Shown: one piece after another, positions 1-50,845 of the stretch
How the letters are laid out: each line of letters opens with the position of its first letter
Numbering within the stretch: position 1 is the first letter of the stretch
Source: Candidatus Omnitrophota bacterium
Lineage (GTDB): Bacteria; Omnitrophota; Gorgyraeia; Duberdicusellales; 4484-171
DNA: 64,000 nucleotides
NCBI GenBank assembly: GCA_021735655.1
Contig: JAIPGM010000007.1
Location: 6,125 to 70,124 of the forward strand
Direction: 5' to 3'
Position numbers and translations under genes: made by a program
Notes under the pieces: generated by a model
Seen by the model: the letters and a program-made list of their open reading frames with translations, nothing else
What the model was told of the DNA's origin: nothing
The model's database searches: none

Positions 1-781
1 GGGCTAAGCCCAATGATTTATCCTGAACGTCACGGAGACTAAAAACTAAATCCTTATTTTTAGCTATTTTAACCTTTGCTCCAAGATAGACTTTTTTTAA
101 CTGACCAGACCCATAGTCAACAATGAAGCTTAAACCCAATTTACGGCTAAAGTTCCAGCGGCCGTATAGACTAATAATCTTTTCCCTTTTTAAATCACCC
201 ACCCCAATCCCTAAACGGTATTTTATGGCTCCCTTTTTAGGATAAATGTTAGGCGATTCAACCTGAACTTTAAAATTAAAAACACTCCCTCGGCCTCCCG
301 ATAAAATATACTTAAGTCTATTACGTTCGTTAATCTGCCAAAATCCATCAAAAACAATAGACTCTTTTACCCTCTTTTTTGTCTTAAGTTTTGCCTTCTC
401 ATAAGAGTAAACTATTTTCTGCTGCTTGTTTAACTGCCAAATACCACCGAAAGTAAGCGTCTCGGGATTTCGCTTTCTTTTAACTTCAAAGCTAAGACGA
501 TTAAATTTATCAGCCCGCCACAAGCCCTTCAACTTCAAAAAAGAAACTATCTGCTTATTCTTCTCTGACTTGGTTTTAACTTCAAAGGTTATAAAATCAG
601 CTCCGGCCTCAGTAATCTTTCCCTTTAGAGTTAGCTTATTATCTATGGAACTCTTATCTTCCTCGGCCTTAAAAACTAATTCATGGTTTGAAGTTAGCTT
701 CCAACGACCATCAAAAGCAGAATTTCCAATAAACAAAAGATTATCCTTATCTAAAGAAAGTTTTGATTTAGTTTTACTCAT
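1..781 (-). CDS. hypothetical protein with internal ~45-aa repeats (partial; C-terminus lies beyond window edge)
   Basis: Open minus-strand frame from ATG at 779-781 runs without a stop to position 1, and is missing from the ORF track because it has no in-window stop. Repeated motifs FDGRW, FGGIW, FDGFW, LYGRW recur about every 45 aa. No clear SD. Confidence 0.4.
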   Translation of the reverse strand, partial: MSKTKSKLSLDKDNLLFIGNSAFDGRWKLTSNHELVFKAEEDKSSIDNKLTLKGKITEAGADFITFEVKTKSEKNKQIVSFLKLKGLWRADKFNRLSFEVKRKRNPETLTFGGIWQLNKQQKIVYSYEKAKLKTKKRVKESIVFDGFWQINERNRLKYILSGGRGSVFNFKVQVESPNIYPKKGAIKYRLGIGVGDLKREKIISLYGRWNFSRKLGLSFIVDYGSGQLKKVYLGAKVKIAKNKDLVFSLRDVQDKSLGLA

Positions 782-837: not shown

Positions 838-1644
838 CTATAACTTACTATTTTCCAATAGGTTATGTAAAAGGGTCCTATTGGAGGCGCAGATAAATCC
901 GGGGTTTTTCAAGCTTTCCTTGTTGTAACTAAAAGGAGTCCCGTCTAGGTTAGCAACAACTGCTCCTGAAGCCTCAGCTATCGCTTGTCCAGCAGCCGTA
1001 TCCCACTCCATAGTTGGACCACTACGCAAATATAAATCAGCTTGGCCTTCGGCAACTCGGCAAAATTTTAGTGAACTTCCAGCATGAATAACAACAGGAT
1101 TAGTAAATGAAGAAATCATTCTATCCTCTTCCTTGCTACTATGCGAACGGCTTCTAACCACGGTTATTTTATCAAGCAAAGGTTTCCTGGTTCTGATTGG
1201 TTTAGATTTACCGCCCTTATCTTGCCTAAAAGCTCCTTTGGATTTTAAGCCAAAATATAGTTGATCATAAGCCGGTAGAACAACTACCCCAAAAACAGGA
1301 ATGGTTTTTTCAATTAAAGCAATATTAACCGTAAACTCGCCGTTTTTTTGGATAAACTCTTTAGTCCCGTCCAAAGGATCAACCAACCAAAAACTATCCC
1401 AACCGCTTCTTTGAGAAAAAGGTATTTCTTTAGCCTCTTCTGAAATAATCGGAATCTCAGGAAAAGCTTCTTTTAAACCAGCGGCGATTACTTCTTGAGC
1501 TAGTCGGTCAGCTAAAGTTAAAGGGCTATTATCTTTTTTTAAATTAACTTCGAAATCTGAAGATTTGTATACTTCTACTACTCTTTGTGAGGCAAGTGAG
1601 GCTATCTCGAGGATTTTTTCAATCTGAGAATCAGAAAAGTTCAT
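838..1644 (-). CDS. cysQ: 3'(2'),5'-bisphosphate nucleotidase (CysQ/inositol-monophosphatase family; PAP phosphatase)
   Basis: 268-aa ORF with IMPase-family motifs (WLVDPLDGT, WDTAAG); sits directly downstream of the sat/cysC genes. Confidence 0.75.
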   Translation of the reverse strand: MNFSDSQIEKILEIASLASQRVVEVYKSSDFEVNLKKDNSPLTLADRLAQEVIAAGLKEAFPEIPIISEEAKEIPFSQRSGWDSFWLVDPLDGTKEFIQKNGEFTVNIALIEKTIPVFGVVVLPAYDQLYFGLKSKGAFRQDKGGKSKPIRTRKPLLDKITVVRSRSHSSKEEDRMISSFTNPVVIHAGSSLKFCRVAEGQADLYLRSGPTMEWDTAAGQAIAEASGAVVANLDGTPFSYNKESLKNPGFICASNRTLLHNLLENSKL

Positions 1645-1648
1645 GCTT

Positions 1649-2260
1649 TTAGATATAACCTTTTTGAGATAAATAATTTAAAATGCTCTTTGCTGCTTCT
1701 TCCTTGGTTAGCTTACCAGTATCAATAACTATTTCAGCCTGCTCTGGTTCTTCATAGGGAGCAGAAACCCCGGTAAACTGCTTAATTTCACCACTGCGAG
1801 CCTTTTTATAAAGCCCCTTAGGGTCTCTTTGTTCGCAAATTGCAAGATCAGCCTTAACAAAAACTTCAATAAAATCACCTTGCTTCATAAGGCTCCGGGC
1901 CTTATCTCTGTCTTTTCTGTAAGGAGAAATAAAAGCAGTTATAGCTAAAGTTCCGGCTTCAGAAAATAATTTTGCCACCTCACTAATTCTTCGAATATTT
2001 TCTTGGCGATCTTCCGGAGAAAAACCCAAGTTACTATTTAAGCCGTGGCGAACATTGTCACCATCTAGAAGATAAACCTGGTGTTCCTTCTCAAAAAGCA
2101 TTGCCTGAAGCTCAACAGCAACTGTAGATTTACCGCTTGAAGGTAAACCCGTAAACCAAATAACTGCCCCCTTGTGCTTATTGCGCTTTTCTCTGTCCTG
2201 TTTAGATATCCCTGATTCATGCCATGTAATATTTGTGCTCTTTCTTTGTTCTTGATTCAT
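1649..2260 (-). CDS. cysC: adenylylsulfate (APS) kinase
   Basis: P-loop GLPSSGKST, typical APS-kinase length of 203 aa, adjacent to sat. Confidence 0.9.
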
Positions 2261-2263
2261 TTT

Positions 2264-3523
2264 TTACCTCTTACTATAATATTTAGCTAATATTTCAGAA
2301 ACTGGTTTACGCATTACTCGCTCGTCAACTACTTCTTGATTTTGTAATTTTTTTCTTAATTCTTTTCCGGAAATTAAAATCTGTTTATATCCTTTACCTT
2401 TAGACTCTTCAACTAAACCAACTCGACCTAACTCTTGAAAGTAAGCAGCAAATCCAACCTTAATCGGCTCTATTATCAGTGCTCCGTTTAGGTTGGAGAA
2501 TTTCTCTTGGGCGTCGAAATCACCCCAAGCCGGAGCTCCATCATCGAAAGGAGCGTCAGCGTGCTTGCGACCAATAATAATATTACTAAAGCCATAGTTC
2601 TGACGATAGATAGCATGCATTATTGCTTCTTTTGGTCCGGCATAAAACATCTTCATATCCAGACCAATCAGCATAAGTTGCTGACCTAAATCATAACCCT
2701 TGCTCTTCCAAAGTTCTGAATCCTTATCACCCTGGCCTAGAAGTTTATTCTCGATTAAAACCTCATAAGTTTTCATTCTTATGTCCGCTGGAACATCATC
2801 AGATTTAGTAGCGCCAACCAAAGGATTCAAAACAACTCCGGTAAAAAACCCTTCTCGAGTAAGTTCCTCAGCTCCGTGGACCAAGGCATATTCGTGAGCC
2901 CGGTGTAAAGCATTCCTGGTTTGAAAAGCAACTATTTTTTGCCAGCCCTTCTTTTTAAATATTTCTCTGGTTTCAGAAGGAGTAAGCATGTATTTTCCAT
3001 ATTCAGGATGTAATTTCTGAGGTAAGGCTAAAATCTTGCCGCCTAAAAGATAATCACGCTGATCATCGCTAAATATACGCGGACCAGGATGATCAATGCG
3101 TTCAGTTCCATATACTGACTTATTGTAAGCGGTTTTGTCAAAAGGATAAATATCAGATATCTCTAGAGACCCAATTATTTCCTGAGACTCATTCCTAACT
3201 ACTACTGTCTCACCAACTTCTAAATTATCAGCCTCGGACTTAGATATTGCAAAAGCTAAAGGTATAGTCCAGGCATAAGGCTTACCATTTCTTTCTATAT
3301 ATTCATCAGCTAAAACTTTATTGAACTCAAGCCTAGCCATCGGACCTTCAAGCGGAGATAGACCACCGTCAGCAATTCGATAAAATATTGATAAATCAGC
3401 ATTAGAAATATTATAAACTTTTAATCTAGATATCTTATCGAGAAAAACTTCTCTCTCTAATTTAGGAATAAATCGATCAATTAAGCCGCAACCACCATGA
3501 GCTAAAATACTATTGCCATCCAT
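2264..3523 (-). CDS. sat: sulfate adenylyltransferase (ATP sulfurylase)
   Basis: QTRNALHRAHE motif and ATP-sulfurylase fold length. Start moved to the internal ATG (MDGNSIL...), which is preceded by a GAGGGGG SD. Confidence 0.9.
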   Translation of the reverse strand: MDGNSILAHGGCGLIDRFIPKLEREVFLDKISRLKVYNISNADLSIFYRIADGGLSPLEGPMARLEFNKVLADEYIERNGKPYAWTIPLAFAISKSEADNLEVGETVVVRNESQEIIGSLEISDIYPFDKTAYNKSVYGTERIDHPGPRIFSDDQRDYLLGGKILALPQKLHPEYGKYMLTPSETREIFKKKGWQKIVAFQTRNALHRAHEYALVHGAEELTREGFFTGVVLNPLVGATKSDDVPADIRMKTYEVLIENKLLGQGDKDSELWKSKGYDLGQQLMLIGLDMKMFYAGPKEAIMHAIYRQNYGFSNIIIGRKHADAPFDDGAPAWGDFDAQEKFSNLNGALIIEPIKVGFAAYFQELGRVGLVEESKGKGYKQILISGKELRKKLQNQEVVDERVMRKPVSEILAKYYSKR

Positions 3524-3584
3524 TATTTTCTTCCCCCTCAATTCGCCTATTCTTTCTTAAGATATAGTCAAATTGGTTGTTCTT

Positions 3585-4313
3585 TTAACTTAAAAATTTA
3601 TTAACTTCTAAATATTTTATTATTTTCTTTGCTGCTTCCTCAGGTGAAATATCTTTGGTGCTAAGAGTAATTTCGGGGTTTTGAGGCGGCTCATAAGGAT
3701 CATCAATACCAGTAAAAAGTTTCAATAATCCCTGCCTTGCTTTTTTATAAAGACCGCGAGGATCTCTCTTTTCACACTCCTCAAGCGGTGTATCAACATA
3801 TACTTCAATAAAATTATTACACATTTTCCTCACAAAACTTCTTGATTCTTGATAAGGTGAAATAAAAGAAGCTATAACAATAACTTTATTTTTCTCAAGC
3901 AAGCTAGCTAATAACCCTACTCGCTTGATATGTCTATCTCTCTCAGACTTAGTAAAACCGATCTTAGGAAATATTGCTCTGATTTTTTCACCGTCTAAGC
4001 GTTCAACATTAAAAGACTTAGCCGTAAGTATCCGATAAAGATTCTCAGCAATGGCTTTTTTCCCTGCGGCAGAAAGTCCGGTTAACCAAATCACACAAGG
4101 AATCGCCTCTCTACGACCAAAAGAAATTTTATCCCAAATTCGTTCATGAAAAAAATAAATCGCCATCTTGCTAACAAATTCCAAAAAACCAACCGTAAAG
4201 GCTAAACTTATTTTTCTTGTAAAAATAAATACAATGATTGATGTGGCTATAGTGCCGGCTGATCTCCAAGTAATAGCCTTAAGTATCGAACGTGCCTTTG
4301 TCTCTCTAAACAT
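3585..4313 (-). CDS. APS kinase paralog with N-terminal ~70-aa hydrophobic (membrane) extension
   Basis: C-terminal 170 aa are a canonical APS kinase (GLSAAGKK P-loop). The N-terminus carries two predicted TM segments. Confidence 0.8.
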   Translation of the reverse strand: MFRETKARSILKAITWRSAGTIATSIIVFIFTRKISLAFTVGFLEFVSKMAIYFFHERIWDKISFGRREAIPCVIWLTGLSAAGKKAIAENLYRILTAKSFNVERLDGEKIRAIFPKIGFTKSERDRHIKRVGLLASLLEKNKVIVIASFISPYQESRSFVRKMCNNFIEVYVDTPLEECEKRDPRGLYKKARQGLLKLFTGIDDPYEPPQNPEITLSTKDISPEEAAKKIIKYLEVNKFLS

Positions 4314-4316
4314 AAG

Positions 4317-5459
4317 TTATTTATTAAAAAACCTTCTAGTTGTTGATATTACATAGTTTATTTGCCGGTCAGTTAGCCAAGGATGGATCGGAAGGCTCAA
4401 AATTCTAGTAGCCATACTTTCGGCAACTTTAAGCTTACCACTTATCTTTACCCTCTTAAAAGCCTTCATCTTATGAAGACAAACCGGATAATAAATTCGT
4501 GAATGTATACCCTTGGAATTCAAGTAGTTAAGAAGTTTATCTCTTTTTGCCGAAATTCTCAAGGTATAAAGATGGTAAACATGTCTACAAGCCTTAGATT
4601 CACTGGGAATTTTAAGCTCTTTAATATCTTTAAAAGCATTGTTATATTTTTGAGCGACACTTCTTCTTAAATCATTAAACTTATTAATATGTTTTAACTT
4701 AGCTAAAAGTACTGCTGCCTGCATTGAATCAAGGCGCGAGTTATAGCCGATATAAGCAGCTCTATACTGGCTAGTTTGACCGTGATTGCGCAAGATAGTT
4801 AAAAAAGAAAACAACTTGCTATCATTAGTTGCAATCAAGCCACCGTCACCAAAAGCACCGAGATTTTTAGAAGGAAAAAAACTAAAAGCTCCACAATCGC
4901 CCAGAGAACCTGCTTGTTTGCCATTAAACTTTGCACCAAAACTTTGAGCCGTATCTTCAACCACAAATAAGCCACGGCTTTTCGCTAATTTTGTAATTTC
5001 GCTCATATTAGCTGCCAAACCATATAAATGCACCGGGATAATACCTACTGTATTCTTATTAATCGCTTTTTTTATTTTTAAAGGATCAATATTGTAACTT
5101 TCCGAATCAATATCAACAAATACCGGCGTGGCCCCTGAGTGTACAATACTTTCAGCAGTAGCAATAAATGTAAAAGGCGTAGTGATAATCTCGTCTTTCT
5201 TATCGAAATGCTCCTTACCTTTTATCTTTAAAGCCAAAGCCTTTAAAGATAAAATTAAAGCATCGGTTCCTGAAGCAACACCAAGGGCATGCTTTGTTCC
5301 TAAATAGTCTTCGGCCTTAGCTTCAAAATCCGAAACTGCCTTGCCTAAAATCCATTGCTGAGACTTAAGGCACTGTTTAATATTCTGATCAATCTCTTTT
5401 TTTAAAAAAGAATACTCTTTCTTTAAGTCTAGGAGTGGTATATTAAAATTTTTCTTCAT
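4317..5459 (-). CDS. DegT/DnrJ/EryC1/StrS-family PLP-dependent sugar aminotransferase
   Basis: 380 aa with conserved aminotransferase class motifs (SGTDAL, PLP-lysine region SFFPSKNLGAFGDGG). Confidence 0.85.
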   Translation of the reverse strand: MKKNFNIPLLDLKKEYSFLKKEIDQNIKQCLKSQQWILGKAVSDFEAKAEDYLGTKHALGVASGTDALILSLKALALKIKGKEHFDKKDEIITTPFTFIATAESIVHSGATPVFVDIDSESYNIDPLKIKKAINKNTVGIIPVHLYGLAANMSEITKLAKSRGLFVVEDTAQSFGAKFNGKQAGSLGDCGAFSFFPSKNLGAFGDGGLIATNDSKLFSFLTILRNHGQTSQYRAAYIGYNSRLDSMQAAVLLAKLKHINKFNDLRRSVAQKYNNAFKDIKELKIPSESKACRHVYHLYTLRISAKRDKLLNYLNSKGIHSRIYYPVCLHKMKAFKRVKISGKLKVAESMATRILSLPIHPWLTDRQINYVISTTRRFFNK

Positions 5460-5467
5460 TTGCTATC

Positions 5468-8394
<2,927 letters not shown>

Positions 8395-8398
<4 letters not shown>

Positions 8399-9351
8399 TT
8401 ATAAGCCTCCCTAAACCAATCTACTGTCTTCTTTAGACCTTGGGCAAAATCGACCTTTGGAGAAAACCCTAATAATTCTTTTGCCTTTTGTATATCAGCA
8501 TGGGTCTTCCTCACATCTCCAAGTCGAATAGGACAATAGTTAGGCTCTAACTTGCTTCCGATAATCTCCTTTAAATTATTAAATAAATTATTCACCGAAT
8601 TAGGTATTCCTAAGCCAACGTTAAATGCTTCCGAACCAACGTTATCCTTCTCAAGACACCGAATATTCATATCAACCACATCGCTAATAAAAGTAAAGTC
8701 CCTCTCCTGATTTCCGTCTCCATATATCGGAGGACTCTTCCCTTCGAATAAACAATTTATGAACTTCGGAATAACAACTGCGTATTCATCCTCTAGAGAT
8801 TGACGCGGACCATATACATTAAAATACCTTAAATTTAAAATTTTCATATTATAAATTTTACTAAAAACATAGGAATATTGTTCAACGATCAACTTTGTGG
8901 CAGCGTAAGGTGAAATTGGTTTTGCAATCTCATTTTCTTTCTCTGGAAAATCATCCCTCTCTCCGTATATAGAGCTTGAAGAAGCACAAACTATCCTTTT
9001 TATACCAGCTTCTTTAGCCGCTAAAAAAAGATTTAAAGTTCCGCTAACATTAACTTTATGATAATCAAGTGGAGCCTCTACTGACTTCGGAACACTGCGT
9101 AAGGCTGCCTGGTGAGAAATAAGCTCTACTCCCGGTAAAACCTGATCCAATATTTTTTGATCGGCAAAGTCACTTTTAATAAACTTTATTTTACTAAAAC
9201 TTTGTTCCAAATTGTCAAGATTACCAGTTATAAGGTTATCTACTACAGTGACCTCAGCGCCTAATTTTACAAGTTTATCAACTATATGTGAACCAATAAA
9301 GCCAGCACCACCAGTAACTAAAACTTTTCTATCCTTAAGGCTATTAGACAT
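8395..9351 (-). CDS. NAD-dependent nucleotide-sugar epimerase/dehydratase (UDP-glucose/GlcNAc 4-epimerase-like)
   Basis: GGAGFIGSH motif, YxxxK (YAATK), 318 aa. Confidence 0.75.
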
Positions 9352-9353
9352 AT

Positions 9354-10655
9354 TTAAAGCACCTCCAAATTAAGATATTTTCTTTTATATACGTTGCGAG
9401 TATCAAAAACAAACTTTGAGTTCTTTCTAATAAGTTCATAGTCTAGATAAGAGTGATCAGTAACAATAACCACACAATTATATTTTTGCAAATTACTCTT
9501 ACTAAGAGCTACCGCTTTTAAATTAATTCCGTTTATCTTTAAGTATGGTATCAACGGATCATAAAAGCTCACCTTGGATTTTTTGCTTAGCTTTTCAATA
9601 ATATCTAAAGCCGGAGACTCTCTTAAATCTTTAACATCTTTTTTATAAGTAACCCCAACAATCAAAATCTTAGCTTTTCTTAAAGAAACGCCCCTAATTT
9701 TAAGTGATTTCTCAAGCCGCTCAACTACATATCTAGGCATAAAGTGATCAATGTAAGCAGCTGAATCAATCATCTTGGTCTTAAAACCCATCTTTTTTGC
9801 CTTCCAGGAAAGATACATTGGATCAGCCGGAATGCAATGGCCGCCAACGCCTGGCCCAGGATAAAAAGGCATAAAACCAAAAGGCTTTGTCTTTGCAGCC
9901 TCAATTACCTCCCAAATACTTATCCCTAGCTTATGAGCTACAATAGCAAACTCATTAACCAGGGCAATATTTACCAAACGAAAGGTATTTTCGAGAAGTT
10001 TTGCGCTTTCAGCTACCTCAGGACTAGATACTGAAAATACCTGTTTAATAATCTTAGAGTACAAAGCTTTGGCTAGACTGGTCGATTTAGGGGATAACCC
10101 ACCAACGACTTTTGGTATTTTTGCCAAAGTATGTTTTTTATCTCCCGGGTTTATTCTTTCAGGAGAAAAACAAAGAAAAAAATCTTTTTCGCTCTCCAAA
10201 CCAGACTTCTCAAGAATTGGTAAAACTACCTCTCGAGTAGTTGTCGGATAAGAGGTGCTCTCCAAAACGATTAGCTGAGACTTCCGTAAATACTTCTTAA
10301 TTAACTTACTAGCTGCAACTACATAAGAAATATCCGGTATCTTTACCTTACGCAAAGGCGTTGGCACGCAAATAATTAAAATATCAGAATCAGCCAAAAC
10401 TCGCCTTTCAGTGGTCGGTAAAAACTTCTTAGCTTTAATCAACGCTTTAATCGTCTTTGGGTCAATATCAACGATATACTGCTTTGCCTCTTTCAATTTG
10501 TTTACCCGTAAAAGATTATTATCGAAACCGTAAACAAAAAAACCTCGCTTTGCAAAATCTACCGCCAAAGGTAAGCCAACATAGCCCAGGCCGATAATAC
10601 AAATTTTAGCCTTTTTTTTAATTATTTTTTCTTTAAGTACCTGGTAGTTACTCAT
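9354..10655 (-). CDS. UDP-N-acetyl-D-mannosamine/glucosamine dehydrogenase-family protein (nucleotide-sugar dehydrogenase)
   Basis: UDPG/GDP-mannose dehydrogenase family with N-terminal Rossmann fold (IIGLGYVGLPLA) and catalytic Cys region. Start uncertain between 10655 and 10700. Confidence 0.8.
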   Translation of the reverse strand: MSNYQVLKEKIIKKKAKICIIGLGYVGLPLAVDFAKRGFFVYGFDNNLLRVNKLKEAKQYIVDIDPKTIKALIKAKKFLPTTERRVLADSDILIICVPTPLRKVKIPDISYVVAASKLIKKYLRKSQLIVLESTSYPTTTREVVLPILEKSGLESEKDFFLCFSPERINPGDKKHTLAKIPKVVGGLSPKSTSLAKALYSKIIKQVFSVSSPEVAESAKLLENTFRLVNIALVNEFAIVAHKLGISIWEVIEAAKTKPFGFMPFYPGPGVGGHCIPADPMYLSWKAKKMGFKTKMIDSAAYIDHFMPRYVVERLEKSLKIRGVSLRKAKILIVGVTYKKDVKDLRESPALDIIEKLSKKSKVSFYDPLIPYLKINGINLKAVALSKSNLQKYNCVVIVTDHSYLDYELIRKNSKFVFDTRNVYKRKYLNLEVL

Positions 10656-10674
10656 CTTGATTTTAAAAAGCAAT

Positions 10675-12015
10675 CTATCTTCCGATTCCGATATATTCAA
10701 ATCCTAGGTCACGAACCTTATCGCGATCAAACATATTTCTTCCGTCAACGATCAACGGATAACGCATCAACTTCTTAATCTTTTTTAAATCTAGCTTCTT
10801 AAACTCTTCCCATTCGGTCAACAAGCAAAGACAATCACTGCCCTTTACGGCCGCATAAGGATCTTTAGCAAACTTTAACTTAGCTGTTTTAAAGATATCC
10901 TTTGCCTCAGAATAGGCTTGGGGATCATAGGCTGAAATTATTGCTCCTTGTTTTAAGAATGAATTTACGATATCAACCGAGGGAGCAAAACGCATATCAT
11001 CGGTATCGGGTTTAAACGATAAGCCTAAAATTGCAATTTTCTTATTTTTTATAATCCAAAGCCGATCTTTTACCTTCTCGATGAAATTATGACGTTGACC
11101 TTGATTAATATTTTTAATCTCTTTCAATAAATTAAATTCATAACCTAACTTCTTAGAAATATAAAAAAATGCTTCGATATCCTTAGGGAAACAAAAACCA
11201 CCATAGCCTAAGCCAGCATCCAGAAAGTCTCTACCAATTCTCTTATCCATACCCATGGCTTGGGCTATTTTTTCAATATCGGCTCCGGCTAAATCGCAAA
11301 CTCGCGAAACCGCATTAATAAACGATACCTTGGTAGCTAAAAATGAATTGCAGGCATGCTTTATTAGCTCAGCCGTATTAATATCAGTAACTATAATCGG
11401 GACCTTAATTTTGGCATAGATATCTTTTAATATATTTTCAGCCTTCGTTGACTCAACCCCGATAACTATTCTGTCCGGAGAGAAAAAATCATAGATTGCC
11501 TTACCTTCCCTTAAAAATTCAGGGTTAGAGGCAATATCAAAGTCTCGGCTATTTTTTTTGTAGCGAGAAATAATATCCTTTATCTTCTTTCCGGTCTGAA
11601 CCGGAACAGTTGATTTTCCAACAATTAACTTATAAGAATTAAGATTATTAGCAACTACCCGAGCAACATTCTCTATGGCGCTAAGATCAGCTGAACCATC
11701 TTTCTGCGGTGGAGTACCGACAGCAATAAAAATCACTTGGCTCTTTCTAATTGCCTCAGTTAACGAGGCTGAAAAAACCAAGCCACCACTCTTAATACCT
11801 TTTTTAACCAAAGGCTCTAGATCCGGCTCAAAGAACGGTACTTTTTTGGCTTTTAAACTCTGGATTTTTTTCTTATCTTTATCAACACAAATTACCTTAT
11901 GCCCTAATTCACAAAAACAAGCTGCAGCGACTAAGCCAACGTGACCAGCCCCAACCACACAAAGATTATACTTTTTAACTGTTTTATTCTTTTGCTTGTT
12001 TGACTTTACTTTCAT
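10675..12015 (-). CDS. ugd: UDP-glucose 6-dehydrogenase
   Basis: VVGAGHVGL Rossmann motif and GGFCFPKD catalytic-Cys motif. Start probably the internal ATG (MKVKSNK...). Confidence 0.85.
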   Translation of the reverse strand: MKVKSNKQKNKTVKKYNLCVVGAGHVGLVAAACFCELGHKVICVDKDKKKIQSLKAKKVPFFEPDLEPLVKKGIKSGGLVFSASLTEAIRKSQVIFIAVGTPPQKDGSADLSAIENVARVVANNLNSYKLIVGKSTVPVQTGKKIKDIISRYKKNSRDFDIASNPEFLREGKAIYDFFSPDRIVIGVESTKAENILKDIYAKIKVPIIVTDINTAELIKHACNSFLATKVSFINAVSRVCDLAGADIEKIAQAMGMDKRIGRDFLDAGLGYGGFCFPKDIEAFFYISKKLGYEFNLLKEIKNINQGQRHNFIEKVKDRLWIIKNKKIAILGLSFKPDTDDMRFAPSVDIVNSFLKQGAIISAYDPQAYSEAKDIFKTAKLKFAKDPYAAVKGSDCLCLLTEWEEFKKLDLKKIKKLMRYPLIVDGRNMFDRDKVRDLGFEYIGIGR

Positions 12016-12028
12016 TAATACCTTTCTT

Positions 12029-14452
12029 TTAATAAGTAGTATAATATTGAGATTTAGCCCCCTCATGCGTCTTATCAAAAGTTATGCTCAAACTGGGAAA
12101 GGCCTTTAAAACAAATTCAAACCAAACAGTATAGTTTTTTCCGCCAACTGAGGCCCTCTTAACATCTAAACCGAGGTCAAGCCACCAACAATGCAAATCA
12201 GTTCTTACTTTATATTGCTGTTCAAATAAGTCGCCACGATTATATTCATAACGCAAATAACTTCCTAACTTTACCTTCGGGGTTAACTGATAGGAAAAAT
12301 CAAAAGTTCCCTGAGTGTCAGTTACCCGGGTATAGCGATGGCCATAGGTAAAAGAGTACCTTTCCTTCTCTACTTCTTCACCAGCTTCAAACACCTTATA
12401 TTTACCTTTGGTAGTAAAATCAAGATTAAAAGAAGTTATTCTTCCTAGCTTGTTACCGTCTGAATTAGCATCATAAGTAACGTTAGAGGTAAGTGATAAG
12501 CCCTCCTTAGGATAGATCTCTAAATCAGCGGTTATAGTAGTAATTCGACTATTAGCACCTTCAGGATTAATCGTATAGTTAAGAGCCGGGCTAAAATAAA
12601 CAAAGTCCCACTTCTCATTTTCCTTATTTTTAACCTGCAACTTATTGCTTAGAACAAAACTAACTGTCTCGGACCGACTTAAGCTATCAATTCCATCAAA
12701 TTGAAAAACATTAGCGTTAGCTACAGTTGGCTCATGAGCGTAACTATAAGTTATCTCAGGAGTTATAAGGTGGCGCACCTTATCTATCTCCTCGCCAAAA
12801 ATATCCCAATCCACATCAAAAACCTTATAAAGTCTGCTACTTAAAGATGTTCCGCTGGTAAAGCCAATTCGCCAAATATCCTCATCGCCAAAAGCATTCT
12901 TAGAGTAATATATTGAATTTAAACCAATGTTAGGTGAAATACTAAGCCACTTTATCTTATCCGAGTAGCTTAAGGTATTTTTACCGTAAAATCTAAAAGC
13001 ATCATCATCCAAATCAGAATTAGCATTCTTTTTAGCTAGATTAGATATCTTTTCACTAGAGTTAAAGTAAAGCTTACTGTTTCCTAACTGTTGACTGAAA
13101 AAATCATAGCTAAGCTCTGGAAGGTACTCACTCATGCTTTCGTAACGATTAAACCTTTTCTGAGTTAATAAAGATAAAGAAGAATTCTGAAAAGGATAAC
13201 GCATGAGAAGGTAACTCTTGGGGTTAGGGTTAAGCTCATACTCTTCCTCAAAGAAATCTTTAACAAAAAACTCATCGGAAAATTTATGAAACTCAGCAAT
13301 TATCGATAAGTTCTTTATCGGTTCACCGTCATAAGATAATTCTGCCTTGTAGCGATCGTCTTCTAAATATTTATCAGCCTTTCCTGAGCGATCACCGTGA
13401 ACTTTAAAAAGACTATTTCGCTTGCCGATTTGATAAAGCTTATCTTGAATCATATAGTAACGAGCCAAGGCTTTACCCATTTTTTTGCTCTCCATCTTAT
13501 GGGTTAAACCAAACCCCCAGCCTCTTTCCTCATACCAATCAATATTAAACCAATCCGTATGCTCTTCATTGAGTTGATAGCGCCAGCGAGTCAGTAAAAA
13601 GTAACCCAGCTCATCATTGTGCCCCGGAACTATCTCAGCCGGAAAAGAGGTATCCTTTAAAGACTGGGAAAAATAAGGAATATAGAATACCGGAACTTTC
13701 CCCACCTTTAAAGTTACTTTTCTGGCTACTACTTTATCGCCGGGATAAATGGTTACCTCTTTTGACACCATCCGGTAGTGCGGCTCAGCTAAATCACAAG
13801 TTGTCATGTAGCCGTTTCTCATTACCAATTTGTTTTTACCTATTTTTTCTCCTTCCGGAGCCTCTCCATAAAAAGGAGTACTCTCAAAACGAATATTATT
13901 TATATCAGCATTATAAGTATTAAAATCATAAACTGCTGTTTCACCATAGAGAACTGTTCCCTCTCTGATTACTTTAATATTTCCAGTAATATTAGCGATA
14001 TTAGTATTAACGTCAAAGATTCCCTCGTCACAGTAAAGCTCAACATCTTTCTGGACCATCTTCACATTGCCTTTAGCATAAATTTTACCCACACCGCGCT
14101 GAAAATCTATTTCATCAGCATCAACAATTACCGGTATTTTTTCACTACCAGAAGTGGCTTTTTGATCAGGCTTAGAGCTATCATCGGTCTTTTTGTCAGT
14201 TTTAGCTTCTTTAGCTTTTTCATCTTGTTTAACTTCTTGAACTAGAGCCTTATCTTCTAAAGGAGATACCTTTTCCTCTCTAGTTAAAGAAACCGCATCA
14301 AGAGTAGACTTAACTGTAGTCAATTTACTAACCAATATCCCTTTGTTTTTGGAAGCAGAAGATAGCGGCGTGGTTTCACTATTAGAAAAAGCAACCAGCG
14401 GTAAGAAAAAAACAACCAGTACAATCAGTTTTTTCATATTACTGTTTCTCAA
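12029..14452 (-). CDS. lptD: LPS-assembly outer-membrane protein LptD (OstA)
   Basis: 807 aa with signal peptide, N-terminal OstA/LptA-like domain and a large C-terminal beta-barrel with aromatic-rich C-terminus. Confidence 0.75.
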   Translation of the reverse strand: MRNSNMKKLIVLVVFFLPLVAFSNSETTPLSSASKNKGILVSKLTTVKSTLDAVSLTREEKVSPLEDKALVQEVKQDEKAKEAKTDKKTDDSSKPDQKATSGSEKIPVIVDADEIDFQRGVGKIYAKGNVKMVQKDVELYCDEGIFDVNTNIANITGNIKVIREGTVLYGETAVYDFNTYNADINNIRFESTPFYGEAPEGEKIGKNKLVMRNGYMTTCDLAEPHYRMVSKEVTIYPGDKVVARKVTLKVGKVPVFYIPYFSQSLKDTSFPAEIVPGHNDELGYFLLTRWRYQLNEEHTDWFNIDWYEERGWGFGLTHKMESKKMGKALARYYMIQDKLYQIGKRNSLFKVHGDRSGKADKYLEDDRYKAELSYDGEPIKNLSIIAEFHKFSDEFFVKDFFEEEYELNPNPKSYLLMRYPFQNSSLSLLTQKRFNRYESMSEYLPELSYDFFSQQLGNSKLYFNSSEKISNLAKKNANSDLDDDAFRFYGKNTLSYSDKIKWLSISPNIGLNSIYYSKNAFGDEDIWRIGFTSGTSLSSRLYKVFDVDWDIFGEEIDKVRHLITPEITYSYAHEPTVANANVFQFDGIDSLSRSETVSFVLSNKLQVKNKENEKWDFVYFSPALNYTINPEGANSRITTITADLEIYPKEGLSLTSNVTYDANSDGNKLGRITSFNLDFTTKGKYKVFEAGEEVEKERYSFTYGHRYTRVTDTQGTFDFSYQLTPKVKLGSYLRYEYNRGDLFEQQYKVRTDLHCWWLDLGLDVKRASVGGKNYTVWFEFVLKAFPSLSITFDKTHEGAKSQYYTTY

Positions 14453-15347
14453 GCTGCTCCTTAACCAGCAAGGCGGCTCCGACTATCCCCGGCTGTTTTA
14501 ACTGAGCCTTGAGAACTTTTAAATTCTTCACTTGAGGCCACATGGCCTGTTGTCTTATCACCTGTAAAAGATATGGTCTAAACAAACCTAAGGCTCCAGA
14601 CACCCCTCCACCTAGGATAATCGCCTCGGGGTTAAATACATTAACCATGCCCGATAAAAACTTACCTAAATTATATGAAAATTCCTTCCAAAGCATAATA
14701 GCCTGTTTTTCACCTTTTAGGCCCCTTTGAAATATCTCACTTACTTCCTTAATCTTAGTTTTATTTCCTTTGAGTTGCCTATAGCGCTTTAAGAGATAAC
14801 CATTACCAGTATAAGTCTCAATACAGCCTCTGGCTCCACAGCCACAAAGGTTTCCCTTTAAAGTTAAAGGTACATGACCTAACTCAGCAGCGCTGGTTCT
14901 CCCAGTTAGAAGCTTGCCATCAATTAATACTGCTCCGCCTAAGCCAGTGCCGAGAGTTAAAAAAATAGCTTGTTTAAACCCCCGACCAGCACCACAGCGA
15001 GCCTCAGCAAGACCAAAAAGATTAGCATCATTACCTATAGCTACCGGAAGCTTGAGCTGTTTGATAAGCACCTCTTTTAAGGGAAAGTTCTTCCAACCAG
15101 GAATGTTGGGAAGATAATAGATGAATCCTTTTTTTGTATCGATTATGCCGGGGGCACCAATACCAAGGCCTTTAATTGAAAAACCTTTAAAATCCTTTAA
15201 TAAAGATTTAAGGTTCTGGATAAAAACGGTTTTTTTTCTTAAGTCAGCCGATTGGTAAATTCTTTCTTTAACTACTACCCCCTTGGGGCTTACCAACCCA
15301 GCTTTTATATAAGTACCACCCCAATCAATGCCTAAAAAGACTGCCAC
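14439..15347 (-). CDS. ROK-family sugar kinase (glucokinase-like)
   Basis: N-terminal GIDWGGT motif and ROK signature with the Cys-rich Zn motif GHVPLTLKGNLCGCGARGCIE. Confidence 0.8.
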   Translation of the reverse strand: MAVFLGIDWGGTYIKAGLVSPKGVVVKERIYQSADLRKKTVFIQNLKSLLKDFKGFSIKGLGIGAPGIIDTKKGFIYYLPNIPGWKNFPLKEVLIKQLKLPVAIGNDANLFGLAEARCGAGRGFKQAIFLTLGTGLGGAVLIDGKLLTGRTSAAELGHVPLTLKGNLCGCGARGCIETYTGNGYLLKRYRQLKGNKTKIKEVSEIFQRGLKGEKQAIMLWKEFSYNLGKFLSGMVNVFNPEAIILGGGVSGALGLFRPYLLQVIRQQAMWPQVKNLKVLKAQLKQPGIVGAALLVKEQLEKQ

Positions 15348-15499: not shown

Positions 15500-15577
15500 T
15501 GGTCGGGAGAGTGGGATTTGAACCCACGGCCTCAACGTCCCGAACGTTGCGCGCTAGCCAAGCTGCGCTACCTCCCG
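15500..15577 (-). tRNA. tRNA-Pro (anticodon CGG)
   Basis: Hand-folded cloverleaf: 7-bp acceptor stem CGGGAGG/TCTCCCG, D-arm GCGC/GCGC, anticodon stem CAACG/CGTTG with loop TTCGGGA (CGG, G37), T-arm GTGGG-TTCAAAT-CCCAC, encoded CCA. Confidence 0.85.
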
Positions 15578-36881: not shown

Positions 36882-37886
36882 TTATTTTATCTCTACTTTC
36901 TTCAAATAACTACTGGCTACCTCTGGCGAGGTAGGATTTATATAGAAACCAGTTCCCCATTCAAAACCAGCAATCTTACTCAATTTAGGCATAACTTCAA
37001 CATGCCAATGATACCATTCTTGACTTTCAGCTTTGTCAACGGGGTTGGTATGAATAATAAAGTTATAGGGTGGATTCCCTAAAACTAGTTTAATTCTAGT
37101 AAGCACCTCTTTCAAAATACGGGCAAAATTATCTATGGCTGCTTCGGAAATATCGGTAAAATCAGCCTGATGCTGTTTAGGCATAATAACTATCTCAAAA
37201 GGAGAACGCGAGGCAAAAGGACAAAAAGCAATAAAATCTTTGTTCTCACAAACCTCCCGATGTCGATGTTCAATTTCCTGTAAGATCATATCGCAGAATA
37301 TACAGCGCTCCTTATAGTCAAAGTGACGATGAGAGCATTTAAGTTCTTCATCTACCCTCCGGGGAACAATTGGCAATGAAATAAGCTGAGTGTGGCTATG
37401 CTCAAGTGATGCTCCGGCGACTAGACCGTAATTTTTAAAAATAAGAACATATTTAAATCGCTCATCTTTACTTAGAGCAATGCTTCGACGCTTATAAACT
37501 CCGATTACTTTTTTAATCTGCTCAATAGTTAGGTCAGCTAACTGCTTAGAGTGATCAGTTCCCTCAATAATAACTTCATGCTTTCCTACGCCGTTCATCA
37601 TATCAAAAATGCCTACGCCAGTTTTACCTAGGTTGTCTTCATCAGCTAAGGCCGGATATTTATTAGGTACGGTGCGTGTCTGCCAACCAGTAGTGTCGGG
37701 CTTGCTACCTTTCGGACGATCAGCGTCAACCTCAGGCGGAGTCATTTTTTCCTTTCCTTCACAAAAAGGACACATCCCTTCTTTAATATCAAGCTTCTCT
37801 ACCTCATAATTATCAGGGCCAAAGTTCTTTTCGGTGCTGATAATAACCCAACGAGCCGTAATCGGATCTAATCTTAATTCACCCAT
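36882..37886 (-). CDS. galactose-1-phosphate uridylyltransferase-like HIT-family nucleotidyltransferase (type-1 GalT-like)
   Basis: Zn motif CPFCEGKE and intact HSHTQ (HxHxQ) active-site motif. Start set at the ATG 37884-37886, which abuts the upstream paralog's stop. Confidence 0.75.
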   Translation of the reverse strand: MGELRLDPITARWVIISTEKNFGPDNYEVEKLDIKEGMCPFCEGKEKMTPPEVDADRPKGSKPDTTGWQTRTVPNKYPALADEDNLGKTGVGIFDMMNGVGKHEVIIEGTDHSKQLADLTIEQIKKVIGVYKRRSIALSKDERFKYVLIFKNYGLVAGASLEHSHTQLISLPIVPRRVDEELKCSHRHFDYKERCIFCDMILQEIEHRHREVCENKDFIAFCPFASRSPFEIVIMPKQHQADFTDISEAAIDNFARILKEVLTRIKLVLGNPPYNFIIHTNPVDKAESQEWYHWHVEVMPKLSKIAGFEWGTGFYINPTSPEVASSYLKKVEIK

Positions 37887-37887
37887 T

Positions 37888-48167: not shown

Positions 48168-48222
48168 AGGCTAAATATTAACATAGGCCCTAAATTACGT
48201 CAAGCGAAAAAGAAATTACCCC

Positions 48223-48693: not shown

Positions 48694-48695
48694 AG

Positions 48696-49604: not shown

Positions 49605-49635
49605 TTTTTATCCAAAAAGGTATATTTAGGTATGT

Positions 49636-49860
49636 TTATAGGAAAGAATCAATCTTATCTTTATCAAAACCAATAATAATTTTACCGTCGATAGAGATAA
49701 CCGGAACTCCCATTTGCCCTGAAATCTTTACCATTTCTTCACGAGCAGCAGCATCTTGAGAAACATCAAAATTTTGGTAAGCTATGCTCTTGGAAGTCAG
49801 GTAATCTTTCACCATCACGCAATAGGGACAAGTTTTGGTAGAGTATACTTTTACTTCCAT
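49636..49860 (-). CDS. glutaredoxin/NrdH-like small redoxin (CPYC)
   Basis: 74 aa with TCPYC active site. Confidence 0.85.
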   Translation of the reverse strand: MEVKVYSTKTCPYCVMVKDYLTSKSIAYQNFDVSQDAAAREEMVKISGQMGVPVISIDGKIIIGFDKDKIDSFL

Positions 49861-49866
49861 TGTAAT

Positions 49867-50349: not shown

Positions 50350-50362
50350 GGAATTCTTAGTT

Positions 50363-50842: not shown

Positions 50843-50845
50843 AGA

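What the first reader, a model, noticed from the sequence alone, without database searches (positions are those of the whole stretch)
838..14452. PAPS synthesis/recycling genes fused to a nucleotide-sugar and LptD locus; candidate sulfated-glycan (LPS/EPS) pathway
lptD is followed in the same direction by ugd, a UDP-ManNAc dehydrogenase-like gene, an epimerase, gmd, fcl, a UXS-like gene, a DegT aminotransferase, a membrane-anchored APS kinase, sat, cysC and cysQ, with overlapping junctions. These supply GDP-fucose, UDP-uronic acids and amino sugars. Sat and two APS kinases make PAPS, and CysQ removes the PAP by-product of sulfotransferases. The assimilatory genes PAPS reductase and sulfite reductase are absent from the locus. 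That points to PAPS as a sulfate donor for glycan sulfation rather than cysteine synthesis. Sulfated bacterial surface glycans are rare and poorly characterised.
Basis: partly seen in the sequence, partly recalled or inferred. Interest (0 to 1): 0.55.

Follow-up and report, generated by a model that had tools for sequence, protein, structure and literature searches.

The report
PAPS-supply cassette inside Omnitrophota glycan locus
An uncultured Omnitrophota bacterium carries genes for making the activated sulfate donor PAPS inside its cell-surface sugar gene cluster, which suggests a sulfated surface glycan, but the enzyme that would attach the sulfate was not found.

Summary
The gene content is as described. 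On the minus strand, a ROK kinase and an LptD-like gene are followed by ugd, a second NDP-sugar dehydrogenase, an epimerase, gmd, fcl, a UDP-xylose synthase, a DegT aminotransferase, a DUF2061-anchored APS-kinase-like gene, sat, cysC and cysQ. The organism is a Candidatus Omnitrophota MAG.

The PAPS genes behave as an accessory cassette. It lies between UXS-DegT and an EPS-type MarR regulator in six related Omnitrophota loci and is missing from most others. The same Sat clade sits in differently arranged polysaccharide loci elsewhere. More distant Sat relatives lack CysC and pair with CysH.

This favours PAPS as a donor for a surface glycan. However, no sulfotransferase, PAPS reductase or sulfite reductase is present in about 84 kb of this genome. 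No sulfotransferase turned up in the annotated parts of about 15 related cassette neighbourhoods either. The rest of the genome could not be read.

The "second APS kinase" has degenerate catalytic motifs (GKKA, DGE), so it is probably not a kinase.

Verdict: a likely but unproven new member of a known kind of locus, of moderate interest.

The parts
14439..15347 (-). ROK-family sugar kinase, the first gene after tRNA-Pro and a promoter-like site, so the probable start of the long co-directional block
   Evidence: PF00480, E 3e-62. tRNA-Pro lies at 15500-15577. A strong terminator lies at 16338-16311 and a promoter-like site at 15434-15407. ribE-ROK-LptD synteny is conserved in L084 and L085.
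12029..14452 (-). LptD-like outer-membrane LPS-assembly protein, divergent
   Evidence: OstA_2, E 5e-5; NF003358 LptD, E 4e-10, N-terminal part only. The protein has a signal-peptide-like N-terminus and a C-terminal Y. Orthologues are 78% identical in L085 and 52% in L084; the L084 one has PF04453 LptD.
10675..12078 (-). UDP-glucose 6-dehydrogenase (Ugd/TuaD-like). The true start is probably about 11970.
   Evidence: All three UDPG_MGDP_dh domains match; TIGR03026 scores 467 bits against a cut-off of 190.
9354..10700 (-). Second NDP-sugar 6-dehydrogenase (WbpA/TviB/WecC-like); substrate not assignable
   Evidence: TIGR03026 scores 418 bits. The specific equivalogs fall below their cut-offs.
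8395..9351 (-). SDR nucleotide-sugar epimerase (TviC/GalE-like)
   Evidence: PF01370, E 5e-59; best NCBIfam matches are TviC and GalE, both below cut-off.
7355..8398 (-). GDP-mannose 4,6-dehydratase (gmd), a lineage-specific insert absent from L084 and L085
   Evidence: TIGR01472, 496 bits against a cut-off of 415.
6394..7350 (-). GDP-L-fucose synthase-like (fcl)
   Evidence: NF047922, 305 bits; this is the best match but below the cut-off of 500. The start follows the gene call in L001.
5468..6397 (-). UDP-glucuronate decarboxylase / UDP-xylose synthase (UXS)
   Evidence: E 5e-111 to human UXS1 structures 4GLL and 2B69.
4317..5459 (-). DegT-family sugar aminotransferase, always directly upstream of the PAPS cassette in relatives
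   Evidence: PF01041, E 1e-116. The closest solved structures are 7B0D, then QdtB and WbpE, which are C-3 aminotransferases. DegT-Sat adjacency is seen in L004, L007, L052, L084, L085 and L094.
3585..4313 (-). Membrane-anchored (DUF2061, two-helix hairpin) APS-kinase-like protein with degenerate catalytic motifs; probably not a kinase
   Evidence: PF09834 plus PF01583. Walker A reads GLSAAGKKA and DGD is replaced by DGE. The same erosion is seen in all five cassette-linked copies, whereas all 36 CysC domains are canonical. Both Asp residues of DGDN are essential in human PAPSS (PMC8528679).
2264..3523 (-). ATP sulfurylase (Sat), divergent subfamily with motifs QTRNALHRAH and GRKHAD
   Evidence: PF14306 plus PF01747, E 2e-59. 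NCBIfam equivalog cut-offs are not reached. The closest solved structure is the M. thermolithotrophicus ATPS 8A8D. Start site.
1649..2260 (-). Canonical APS kinase CysC ([14 protein letters not shown])
   Evidence: NF003013, 293 bits against a cut-off of 163; TIGR00455, 275 against 139. Motifs.
838..1644 (-). 3'(2'),5'-bisphosphate nucleotidase CysQ, which removes PAP
   Evidence: TIGR01331, 289.8 bits against a cut-off of 228.8.
1..781 (-). First 260 of 296 residues of an all-beta repeat protein of unknown function (Unk296). It is a general component of Omnitrophota sugar clusters, not of the PAPS cassette.
   Evidence: No Pfam, NCBIfam or PDB match. The family has 370 clusters. It is 66% identical to the gene after cysQ in L091, but it is also present in 24 RmlB loci that lack PAPS genes.

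Best explanation
The region is part of a very long, co-directional cell-envelope glycan locus of a Candidatus Omnitrophota bacterium.

Layout. An LptD-like gene is followed by enzymes for UDP-GlcA, UDP-Xyl, a UDP-HexNAc uronic acid, GDP-Fuc and an amino sugar. Beyond the window come carbamoylation genes, an EPS-type MarR regulator, dTDP-rhamnose genes, heptose-type genes and B12-radical-SAM genes.

The cassette. A PAPS-supply cassette has been inserted between UXS-DegT and the conserved Unk296/MarR-EPS genes. In it, Sat makes APS, canonical CysC makes PAPS, and CysQ hydrolyses the PAP left after sulfuryl transfer. The DUF2061-anchored APS-kinase paralogue has lost key catalytic residues. It more likely binds APS or PAPS at the inner membrane than phosphorylates APS.

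Inferred role. PAPS is most likely the donor for O- or N-sulfation of a surface glycan (LPS O-antigen or core, or capsule/EPS). The sulfotransferase would be encoded further along the locus, elsewhere in the genome, or belong to an unrecognised family.

Shown: the gene identities, the cassette-like insertion, its recurrence in polysaccharide loci, and the absence of reductive genes nearby.
Inferred: the sulfation itself, its acceptor, and the role of the degenerate kinase.
For: Gene identities.

Taxonomy.

Same cassette, same position (DegT-[APSK-like]-Sat-CysC-[CysQ]-MarR_EPS):
- L084 and L085, 60-62% aa identity.
- L004, L007 and L052.
- About 25 other Omnitrophota RmlB loci have the backbone (for example Ugd-UXS-Unk296-RmlA in L055 and L061) without it. 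L089 lacks it too.

Sat relatives in JGI metagenomes:
- 27 loci carry Sat at 61% identity or more. Twenty-two also have CysC; the five without are contigs under 4.2 kb.
- Seven of the nine such loci of 9 kb or more carry polysaccharide genes: Wzc, Wza, UbiA, NusG paralogue, WecB, RmlA, a flippase-like gene, and carbamoyltransferase plus SxtJ.
- Nine carry an SLC13 permease and three carry CysQ.
- The 53 loci with Sat at 52-62% identity mostly lack CysC (3 exceptions). Twenty-four of them carry a CysH-like reductase and five carry TauE.

Other phyla: Aquificaceae L076 has rmlA-rmlC-rmlB, one unlabelled gene, then Sat-CysC-CysQ-KpsS-like. The L088 locus, of unstated taxonomy, has DUF2061-APSK inside a CPS locus.

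The downstream regulator passes TIGR04176, "MarR family EPS-associated".

No PAPS_reduct or NIR_SIR family occurs in 84 kb of this genome.

Literature: PAPS genes inside CPS clusters mark sulfated polysaccharides (PMC11641403). Omnitrophota carry hypervariable polysaccharide cassettes (10.64898/2026.06.07.730766).
Against: - No member of any Pfam sulfotransferase family lies in the 64 kb window or in 20.6 kb beyond cysQ.
- None was seen in the annotated neighbours of about 15 related cassette loci. Motif scans of 1.4 Mb of related loci found none.
- Every ORF of 200 aa or more in the 84 kb has another family assignment except Unk296, whose distribution is independent of the cassette.
- No glycosyltransferase or export gene was reached in this genome.
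- All genes of the window are co-directional, and lineage-wide synteny is high (ribE-ROK-LptD is conserved too). Adjacency is therefore weaker evidence than usual.
- Three loci of the Sat+CysC clade (L095, L096, L098) carry a PAPS_reduct-type neighbour, so this clade can also serve assimilation.
Confidence: 0.5

Rival explanations
1. Ordinary assimilatory sulfate activation. Sat and CysC make PAPS for a PAPS reductase and sulfite reductase encoded elsewhere, and CysQ removes the PAP that the reductase releases. The position in the sugar locus reflects a tightly packed, single-strand genome with conserved synteny, not a functional link.
For: - The closest Sat relatives outside the CysC-bearing clade sit next to CysH-type reductases in 24 of 53 loci. 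Three loci inside the clade have a PAPS_reduct neighbour.
- No sulfotransferase was found (and others).
- All 64 kb is co-directional, and unrelated housekeeping genes (trp operon, rsfS, ribE) lie in the same block.
- In E. coli, CysQ belongs to the cys regulon (established knowledge).
Against: - No cysH, sir or cysK lies in 84 kb.
- The cassette is accessory. It is present in only 3 of the 80 RmlB-centred loci fetched, and it recurs in polysaccharide loci with quite different gene orders (L093, L103, L107, L140) and, by record title, in a different phylum (L076, Aquificaceae).
- The organism is a strict anaerobe by its oxidative-stress gene set. Such organisms usually have sulfide available, which is an inference.
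Confidence: 0.25
2. PAPS is made for sulfation of a non-glycan acceptor, such as a membrane lipid, a small molecule or a protein tyrosine, as in the Bacteroides BT_0411-0416 cholesterol-sulfation cluster. The sugar genes are only neighbours.
For: - The Bacteroidales locus L087 (CysQ, DUF2061-APSK, CysD) resembles the BT_0411-0415 PAPS cluster, which feeds a steroid sulfotransferase (PMC9417993).
- The membrane anchor of the APSK-like protein would fit a membrane acceptor.
Against: - No such transferase is adjacent here, unlike BT_0416.
- The repeated embedding in polysaccharide loci points to glycans.
Confidence: 0.12
3. The degenerate DUF2061-APSK-like protein is itself the missing piece. It would be a membrane-anchored PAPS-binding pseudo-kinase acting as, or as part of, a new kind of sulfotransferase or donor-delivery device for lipid-linked glycans.
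For: - All five cassette-linked copies have lost the second Asp of DGD (E, E, E, K, K), and several have lost the Walker A Ser/Thr. They keep the APS-binding core motifs and about 60% identity, and each sits beside a canonical CysC.
- No classical sulfotransferase was found nearby.
- Non-catalytic APSK-like domains are known: the P. chrysogenum ATP sulfurylase C-terminal domain, 1I2D and 1M8P, appears among the hits. Its allosteric role is established knowledge.
Against: - The protein is absent from L004, L007 and L052, which still carry Sat-CysC in the same position. It is therefore dispensable for whatever the cassette does.
- D-to-E is a conservative change, and L084 keeps GKST.
- No acceptor-binding feature is evident, and there is no experimental precedent.
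Confidence: 0.07

Closest known systems
Sulfated capsular polysaccharide clusters of marine Gammaproteobacteria (Vibrio sp. KMM 8419; Cobetia marina KMM 1449)
   Same: A second set of PAPS-synthesis genes is embedded in a large polysaccharide and O-antigen locus, together with dTDP-rhamnose and other nucleotide-sugar genes (PMC11641403; PMC11766843 listed).
   Different: Those clusters use CysDN rather than Sat and contain three recognisable sulfotransferases, glycosyltransferases and Kps/Wzx export genes. The sulfated product was shown chemically. Here no sulfotransferase, glycosyltransferase or exporter was reached, and there is no chemistry.
Bacteroides thetaiotaomicron BT_0411-BT_0416 PAPS cluster with cholesterol sulfotransferase
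   Same: A dedicated, non-assimilatory PAPS operon with a CysQ-type phosphatase, an SLC13-type sulfate importer and an APS kinase. The DUF2061-APSK architecture is seen in the Bacteroidales locus L087 (PMC9417993).
   Different: The sulfotransferase BT_0416 is immediately adjacent and the acceptor is a steroid. It uses CysDN rather than Sat. The Bacteroidota DUF2061-APSK copies keep canonical catalytic motifs.
Rhizobial Nod-factor and LPS decoration genes (NodPQ PAPS synthesis, NodH/LpsS sulfotransferases, NodU carbamoyltransferase)
   Same: Accessory PAPS synthesis is dedicated to decorating a surface or secreted glycan. It co-occurs with a NodU-family carbamoyltransferase. Here that gene lies just beyond the window (NodU model E 2e-40) and also sits beside the cassette in L093. 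The rhizobial functions are established knowledge.
   Different: NodH and LpsS are present and characterised in rhizobia. None is identified here.
Assimilatory sat/cysC-cysH-sir operons
   Same: Sat, CysC and CysQ are the same enzyme families.
   Different: Reductive genes are absent from 84 kb here. Sat relatives that do pair with CysH mostly lack CysC.
Non-catalytic APS-kinase-like domain of Penicillium chrysogenum ATP sulfurylase (PDB 1I2D, 1M8P)
   Same: An APSK fold kept as a nucleotide-binding module without kinase chemistry. These chains are among the hits. The allosteric PAPS-binding role is established knowledge.
   Different: That domain is fused to the sulfurylase and soluble. Here the domain is fused to a DUF2061 membrane hairpin and encoded separately.

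Membership tests
Sulfated-polysaccharide biosynthesis locus (PAPS synthesis plus sulfotransferase inside a glycan cluster) | PAPS-synthesis genes located inside a nucleotide-sugar or polysaccharide gene cluster | tested here: met
   Sat, CysC and CysQ lie between DegT and the MarR_EPS regulator and rml genes. The arrangement recurs in relatives.
Sulfated-polysaccharide biosynthesis locus (PAPS synthesis plus sulfotransferase inside a glycan cluster) | At least one PAPS-dependent sulfotransferase in the cluster | tested here: not met
   No sulfotransferase Pfam family occurs in the window or in 20.6 kb beyond it. None was seen in the annotated neighbours of related loci. About 61 kb of the same contig could not be read.
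Sulfated-polysaccharide biosynthesis locus (PAPS synthesis plus sulfotransferase inside a glycan cluster) | Glycosyltransferases and polymer export or assembly genes in the cluster | tested here: inconclusive
   None lies in the 84 kb of this genome. Relatives show GT4, GT2 and GT9, an ABC transporter, and Wzc/Wza further along or beside the cassette.
Sulfated-polysaccharide biosynthesis locus (PAPS synthesis plus sulfotransferase inside a glycan cluster) | Sulfate esters or sulfamates shown chemically on the glycan | not testable with these tools
   The organism is uncultured and known only from metagenomes.
Assimilatory sulfate reduction operon | PAPS or APS reductase (CysH) and sulfite reductase linked to sat/cysC | tested here: not met
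   No PAPS_reduct or NIR_SIR hit occurs in 84 kb. Genome-wide absence could not be tested.
APS kinase (PF01583 / TIGR00455), applied to 3585-4313 | Domain match above the curated cut-off | tested here: met
   PF01583, E 1e-53; TIGR00455, 193 bits against a cut-off of 139.
APS kinase (PF01583 / TIGR00455), applied to 3585-4313 | Walker A GxxxxGK[ST] and the DGD(N) Mg-ATP motif | tested here: not met
   The motifs read GLSAAGKKA and LDGEK. All five cassette-linked paralogues lack the second Asp. D87A and D89A each abolish activity in human PAPSS (PMC8528679).
APS kinase (PF01583 / TIGR00455), applied to 1649-2260 (CysC) | Domain match above the cut-off plus intact catalytic motifs | tested here: met
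   NF003013, 293 bits against a cut-off of 163. Motifs GLPSSGKST and LDGDN are intact.
ATP sulfurylase (Sat) | PUA_2 and ATP-sulfurylase domains with catalytic QxRN..HxxH and GRDHAG motifs | tested here: inconclusive
   Both Pfam domains are well above gathering, and HRAH is present. NCBIfam equivalog cut-offs are not reached (292 against 387; 261 against 323). The motifs read QTRNALHRAH and GRKHAD, and they are conserved in the Omnitrophota clade.
CysQ 3'(2'),5'-bisphosphate nucleotidase | Equivalog model TIGR01331 above its cut-off | tested here: met
   289.8 bits against a cut-off of 228.8.
LptD | N-terminal OstA-like domain plus C-terminal LptD beta-barrel | tested here: inconclusive
   Only weak N-terminal matches were found here. 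The 52%-identical orthologue in L084 has PF04453 LptD on record.

The most novel reading that the evidence does not exclude
Omnitrophota, and some other bacteria, sulfate a lipid-linked surface glycan without any classical sulfotransferase. The DUF2061-anchored APS-kinase paralogue, which has lost its kinase residues in every cassette examined, would have been re-purposed. It would act as a membrane-bound PAPS-binding protein that either delivers the donor to, or itself acts as, a new type of glycan sulfotransferase.
Probability: 0.07. Interest if true: 0.8.

Novelty: new member of a known kind. Interest (0 to 1): 0.38.

Why it matters
If the inference holds, members of the uncultured, ultra-small phylum Omnitrophota decorate their envelope glycans with sulfate. 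Sulfated surface glycans are rare in bacteria. They change charge, adhesion, and recognition by phages or hosts, which matters for organisms thought to live attached to or preying on other cells.

The presence or absence of the cassette at a fixed site in a hypervariable polysaccharide locus would make it a strain-level surface-variation module.

The systematic decay of kinase motifs in the membrane-anchored APSK paralogue is a concrete, testable lead on a widespread but unstudied domain fusion (DUF2061-APSK).

If the cassette instead serves assimilation, the finding is ordinary.

Tried and rejected
1. Unk296, the unknown gene after cysQ, as the missing sulfotransferase: rejected.
   - It is conserved after CysQ in L091 at 66% identity.
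   - Homologues also occur in 24 Omnitrophota RmlB loci with no PAPS genes, and it is missing from L004, L007, L052 and L084.
   - It has no Pfam, NCBIfam or PDB similarity.
   - The single-sequence AlphaFold model was unusable (pLDDT 34), so no fold search was run.

2. Walking the 90 kb Logan contig.
   - One step worked, reaching contig record position 29,444.
   - The second step failed because the exact DegT protein was not among the returned hits.
   - About 61 kb therefore stays unread.

3. "RmlB/RmlD fusion": rejected. The 655-aa protein is an intein-containing RmlB (PF14890 and PF14528).

4. Regex scans for the sulfotransferase 5'-PSB and 3'-PB motifs over 92 loci (1.4 Mb) gave no credible hit. 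This is a crude negative.

5. Pfam census of 45 unlabelled neighbours. Only the top 25 of 66 families are shown, so a single weak sulfotransferase hit could be hidden.

6. Rfam found only two tRNAs, and no riboswitch upstream of the cassette.

7. There is no compositional anomaly. GC is 0.35-0.40 throughout, so there is no sign of recent foreign origin.

8. Literature searches for Omnitrophota with sulfotransferase, PAPS or sulfate found nothing relevant. A search for DUF2061 found nothing functional.

Full report
OBSERVATION

All ORFs of 80 aa or more between 838 and 15347 lie on the minus strand and are tightly packed. Pfam and NCBIfam identify the following, in the direction of transcription:
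- a ROK kinase (15347-14439);
- an LptD-like protein (14452-12029), with only weak N-terminal OstA_2/LptD matches;
- Ugd (12078-10675);
- a second NDP-sugar dehydrogenase (10700-9354), which passes only the generic TIGR03026 model;
- a TviC/GalE-like epimerase (9351-8395);
- Gmd (8398-7355), TIGR01472 at 496 bits against a cut-off of 415;
- an Fcl-like protein (7350-6394);
- an SDR (6397-5468), a clear UDP-xylose synthase with E 5e-111 to human UXS1;
- a DegT aminotransferase (5459-4317), closest to 7B0D and then the C-3 aminotransferases QdtB and WbpE;
- a DUF2061 plus APS_kinase fusion (4313-3585);
- Sat (3523-2264), starting at an ATG behind a GAGGGGGA Shine-Dalgarno sequence;
- CysC (2260-1649);
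- CysQ (1644-838), TIGR01331 at 289.8 bits against a cut-off of 228.8.

Three caveats apply:
- Only three junctions overlap, each by 4 nt.
- The whole 64 kb window is co-directional, with a steady negative GC skew. "Same direction" therefore says little.
- The rest of the window is housekeeping and anaerobe oxidative-stress genes, with no sulfotransferase, PAPS reductase or sulfite reductase.

A strong terminator (16338-16311), tRNA-Pro (15500-15577) and a promoter-like site (15434-15407) precede the ROK gene. No convincing terminator follows on the minus strand. A very long transcription unit starting there is plausible but inferred.

ORGANISM AND SURROUNDINGS

The exact DUF2061-APSK protein is on record as "MAG: Candidatus Omnitrophica bacterium". 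Relatives of neighbouring genes are overwhelmingly Omnitrophota MAGs.

A 90 kb Logan contig carries cysQ and extends past the left edge of the window. One walking step was possible, so I read 20.6 kb beyond cysQ. In order, that stretch holds:
- a 296-aa all-beta repeat protein with no family, here called Unk296 (its first 260 residues are window 781-1);
- a NodU-family carbamoyltransferase, with a small SxtJ-like membrane protein and DUF5989;
- a B12-radical-SAM enzyme;
- a regulator that passes TIGR04176, "MarR family EPS-associated";
- an epimerase, then RmlA and RmlC;
- an intein-containing RmlB;
- more SDRs and a split transketolase;
- HddA/HddC-like heptose activation genes;
- two further B12-radical-SAM enzymes, a sugar-isomerase-type TIM barrel and a second DegT.

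There is still no glycosyltransferase, flippase or sulfotransferase. A second walking step failed.

In relatives, the corresponding DegT is followed by different gene sets:
- GT4, GT2 and GT9 in L089;
- GT1 and GT4, a methyltransferase and AsnB in L092;
- a GT2-like gene, a Glf-NeuB fusion and an ABC transporter in L091.

The block is therefore a glycan-synthesis locus whose assembly part lies further on.

IS THE PAPS MODULE TIED TO THE GLYCAN LOCUS?

Several lines say it is a cassette that associates with polysaccharide loci.

1. Same cassette at the same position in relatives.
- Two Omnitrophota genomes with only 60-62% identity in the APSK-like protein have the same order (L084, L085). The order is ribE, ROK, LptD, Ugd, dehydrogenase, epimerase, UXS, DegT, DUF2061-APSK, Sat-CysC (fused), CysQ in L085 only, then MarR_EPS.
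- L004, L007 and L052 have DegT, Sat, CysC, (CysQ), MarR_EPS without the DUF2061 gene.

2. The cassette is accessory.
- Only 3 of the 80 RmlB-centred loci fetched, which are mostly Omnitrophota MAGs, carry it.
- Many others show the uninterrupted backbone, for example Ugd-UXS-Unk296-RmlA in L055 and L061.
- L089 runs from the dehydrogenases straight into other sugar genes.

3. A scan of JGI metagenomes with an alignment of the Omnitrophota Sat returned 80 loci. They split cleanly.
- The 27 loci with Sat at 61% identity or more: 22 also have CysC, and the five without are contigs under 4.2 kb.
- Of the nine such loci of 9 kb or more, seven carry polysaccharide genes in a different arrangement from the window. 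These include Wzc, Wza, UbiA, a NusG paralogue, WecB, RmlA and a flippase-like gene. In L093 the carbamoyltransferase and SxtJ sit directly beside CysQ.
- Nine have an SLC13 permease, presumably a sulfate importer as proposed for BT_0412 (PMC9417993).
- Three short or medium contigs (L095, L096, L098) have a divergent PAPS_reduct neighbour.
- The 53 loci with Sat at 52-62% identity mostly lack CysC (3 exceptions). Twenty-four of them carry a CysH-like reductase and five carry TauE. That is the APS-based assimilatory layout.

4. Other phyla.
- An Aquificaceae contig has rmlA-rmlC-rmlB, one unlabelled gene, then Sat-CysC-CysQ and a KpsS/KpsC-type capsule gene.
- L088, a JGI contig of unstated taxonomy, has a DUF2061-APSK inside a capsule locus.

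Published work treats PAPS genes inside a polysaccharide cluster as a hallmark of sulfated polysaccharides when sulfotransferases accompany them (PMC11641403). A recent preprint describes hypervariable polysaccharide cassettes in Omnitrophota (10.64898/2026.06.07.730766).

WHAT IS MISSING

No known sulfotransferase family appears in any of these places:
- the window;
- the 20.6 kb beyond it;
- the precomputed Pfam lists for L084, L085/L091, L086, L089 and L092;
- my scans of L004 and L052 and of 20 selected neighbours;
- the 25 families listed from a census of 45 further unlabelled neighbours.

Crude motif scans of 1.4 Mb of loci were also empty.

In the 84 kb of this genome, the only ORF of 200 aa or more without a family is Unk296. 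I tested it as a candidate. It is 66% identical to the gene after CysQ in L091. However, it also occurs in 24 loci that lack PAPS genes, and it is absent from four cassette-bearing loci. It is therefore a general Omnitrophota sugar-cluster gene of unknown function, not the missing transferase.

CysQ does not discriminate between the two readings, because PAPS reductase also produces PAP.

THE "SECOND APS KINASE"

The DUF2061-APSK architecture is common. There are 7559 hits, named from Omnitrophica, Bacteroidales, Gemmatimonadales and Vicinamibacterales.

The window copy has GLSAAGKKA in place of the Walker A GLSGSGKST, and LDGE in place of LDGD. The pattern is systematic:
- All five DUF2061 copies that sit beside a Sat plus canonical CysC have lost the second Asp. 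These are the window, L085, L084, L107 and L140, with E, E, E, K and K at that position.
- Several have also lost the Walker A Ser/Thr.
- All 36 plain CysC domains are canonical.
- The two DUF2061 copies outside Sat cassettes, L087 (Bacteroidales) and L088, are canonical. In L087 it is the other, CysN-fused APSK-like domain that is degenerate.

Either Asp of DGDN is essential in human PAPSS (PMC8528679). I infer that the membrane-anchored paralogue here is not the working kinase. It probably keeps nucleotide (APS or PAPS) binding, because the FISPY, GF and Arg motifs are conserved. Its role is unknown. It is dispensable for the cassette, since L004, L007 and L052 lack it.

Sat is also a divergent subtype. 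Its motifs read QTRNALHRAH and GRKHAD, it falls below the NCBIfam equivalog cut-offs, and its closest solved structure is the active M. thermolithotrophicus enzyme 8A8D.

VERDICT

The most likely reading (about 0.5) is an accessory PAPS-supply cassette serving sulfation of an envelope glycan, with the transferase not yet seen. Assimilatory use (about 0.25) cannot be excluded without the rest of the genome. Sulfation of a non-glycan acceptor (about 0.12) and a re-purposed pseudo-kinase (about 0.07) remain possible.

In kind this is already known: PAPS genes in polysaccharide loci of Vibrio and Cobetia, rhizobial NodPQ, and the Bacteroides BT_0411-0416 cluster. New here are the phylum, the fixed insertion site in a hypervariable locus, the consistent lack of a recognisable sulfotransferase nearby, and the decayed membrane-anchored kinase paralogue. 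Interest is moderate.

Noticed in passing
L086 10001-11968 (about 8.4 kb beyond the window's left edge, same strand as the operon): The dTDP-glucose 4,6-dehydratase RmlB is 655 aa because it carries an intein (Pfam Intein_splicing PF14890; many homologues also carry LAGLIDADG_3 PF14528). Intein-bearing RmlB of 650-700 aa is common in Omnitrophota and also appears in Patescibacteria, WOR-1 and Thermococcus records.
   Followed up: partly
window 1-781 (minus strand); full gene at L001 9108-9998: Unk296 is an all-beta protein built of repeated F-x-G-x-W...L units. It has an invariant C-terminal aromatic residue, no signal peptide, and no Pfam, NCBIfam or PDB match. The family has 370 clusters at 50% identity, and it sits in many Omnitrophota sugar clusters next to UXS or RmlA.
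   Followed up: partly
window 3585-4313 and loci L084, L085, L107, L140: The DUF2061-anchored APS-kinase paralogues that accompany a canonical CysC have all lost the second Asp of the DGD motif (E or K), and several have lost the Walker A Ser/Thr. In Bacteroidales L087 the roles are reversed: DUF2061-APSK is canonical and the CysN-fused domain is degenerate.
   Followed up: yes
L001 10090-12493; also L093 and L061: A NodU-type carbamoyltransferase and the small SxtJ-like membrane protein lie next to the PAPS cassette in this genome, together with DUF5989. In L093 the two lie directly beside CysQ in a different gene order. In L061 they sit near RmlB without PAPS genes.
   Followed up: partly
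window 1-64000: Every ORF of meaningful length in the 64 kb is on the minus strand, and GC skew is uniformly negative (-0.13 to -0.30). This strand bias is extreme and weakens any operon argument based on shared orientation.
   Followed up: no
window 48200-61800: A dense block of anaerobe oxidative-stress genes: rubredoxin, a flavodiiron protein, three rubrerythrin-type proteins, glutaredoxin, thioredoxin-reductase-like, desulfoferrodoxin, hybrid-cluster protein with its NAD-binding partner, and a Fur/PerR regulator.
   Followed up: no
window 36882-38913: Two tandem GalT-like genes (GalP_UDP_transf with DUF4921 and DUF4931) lie between tyrS and gap.
   Followed up: no
window 2264-3523: The Sat of this clade has GRKHAD where canonical ATP sulfurylases have GRDHAG, and QTRNALH where they have QTRNPxH. 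Both variants are invariant across six Omnitrophota sequences.
   Followed up: partly
L091 17117-19513: A relative's locus encodes a 798-aa fusion of UDP-galactopyranose mutase (GLF) and NeuB/SAF domains, followed by a G3P-dehydrogenase-like gene and an ABC transporter.
   Followed up: no
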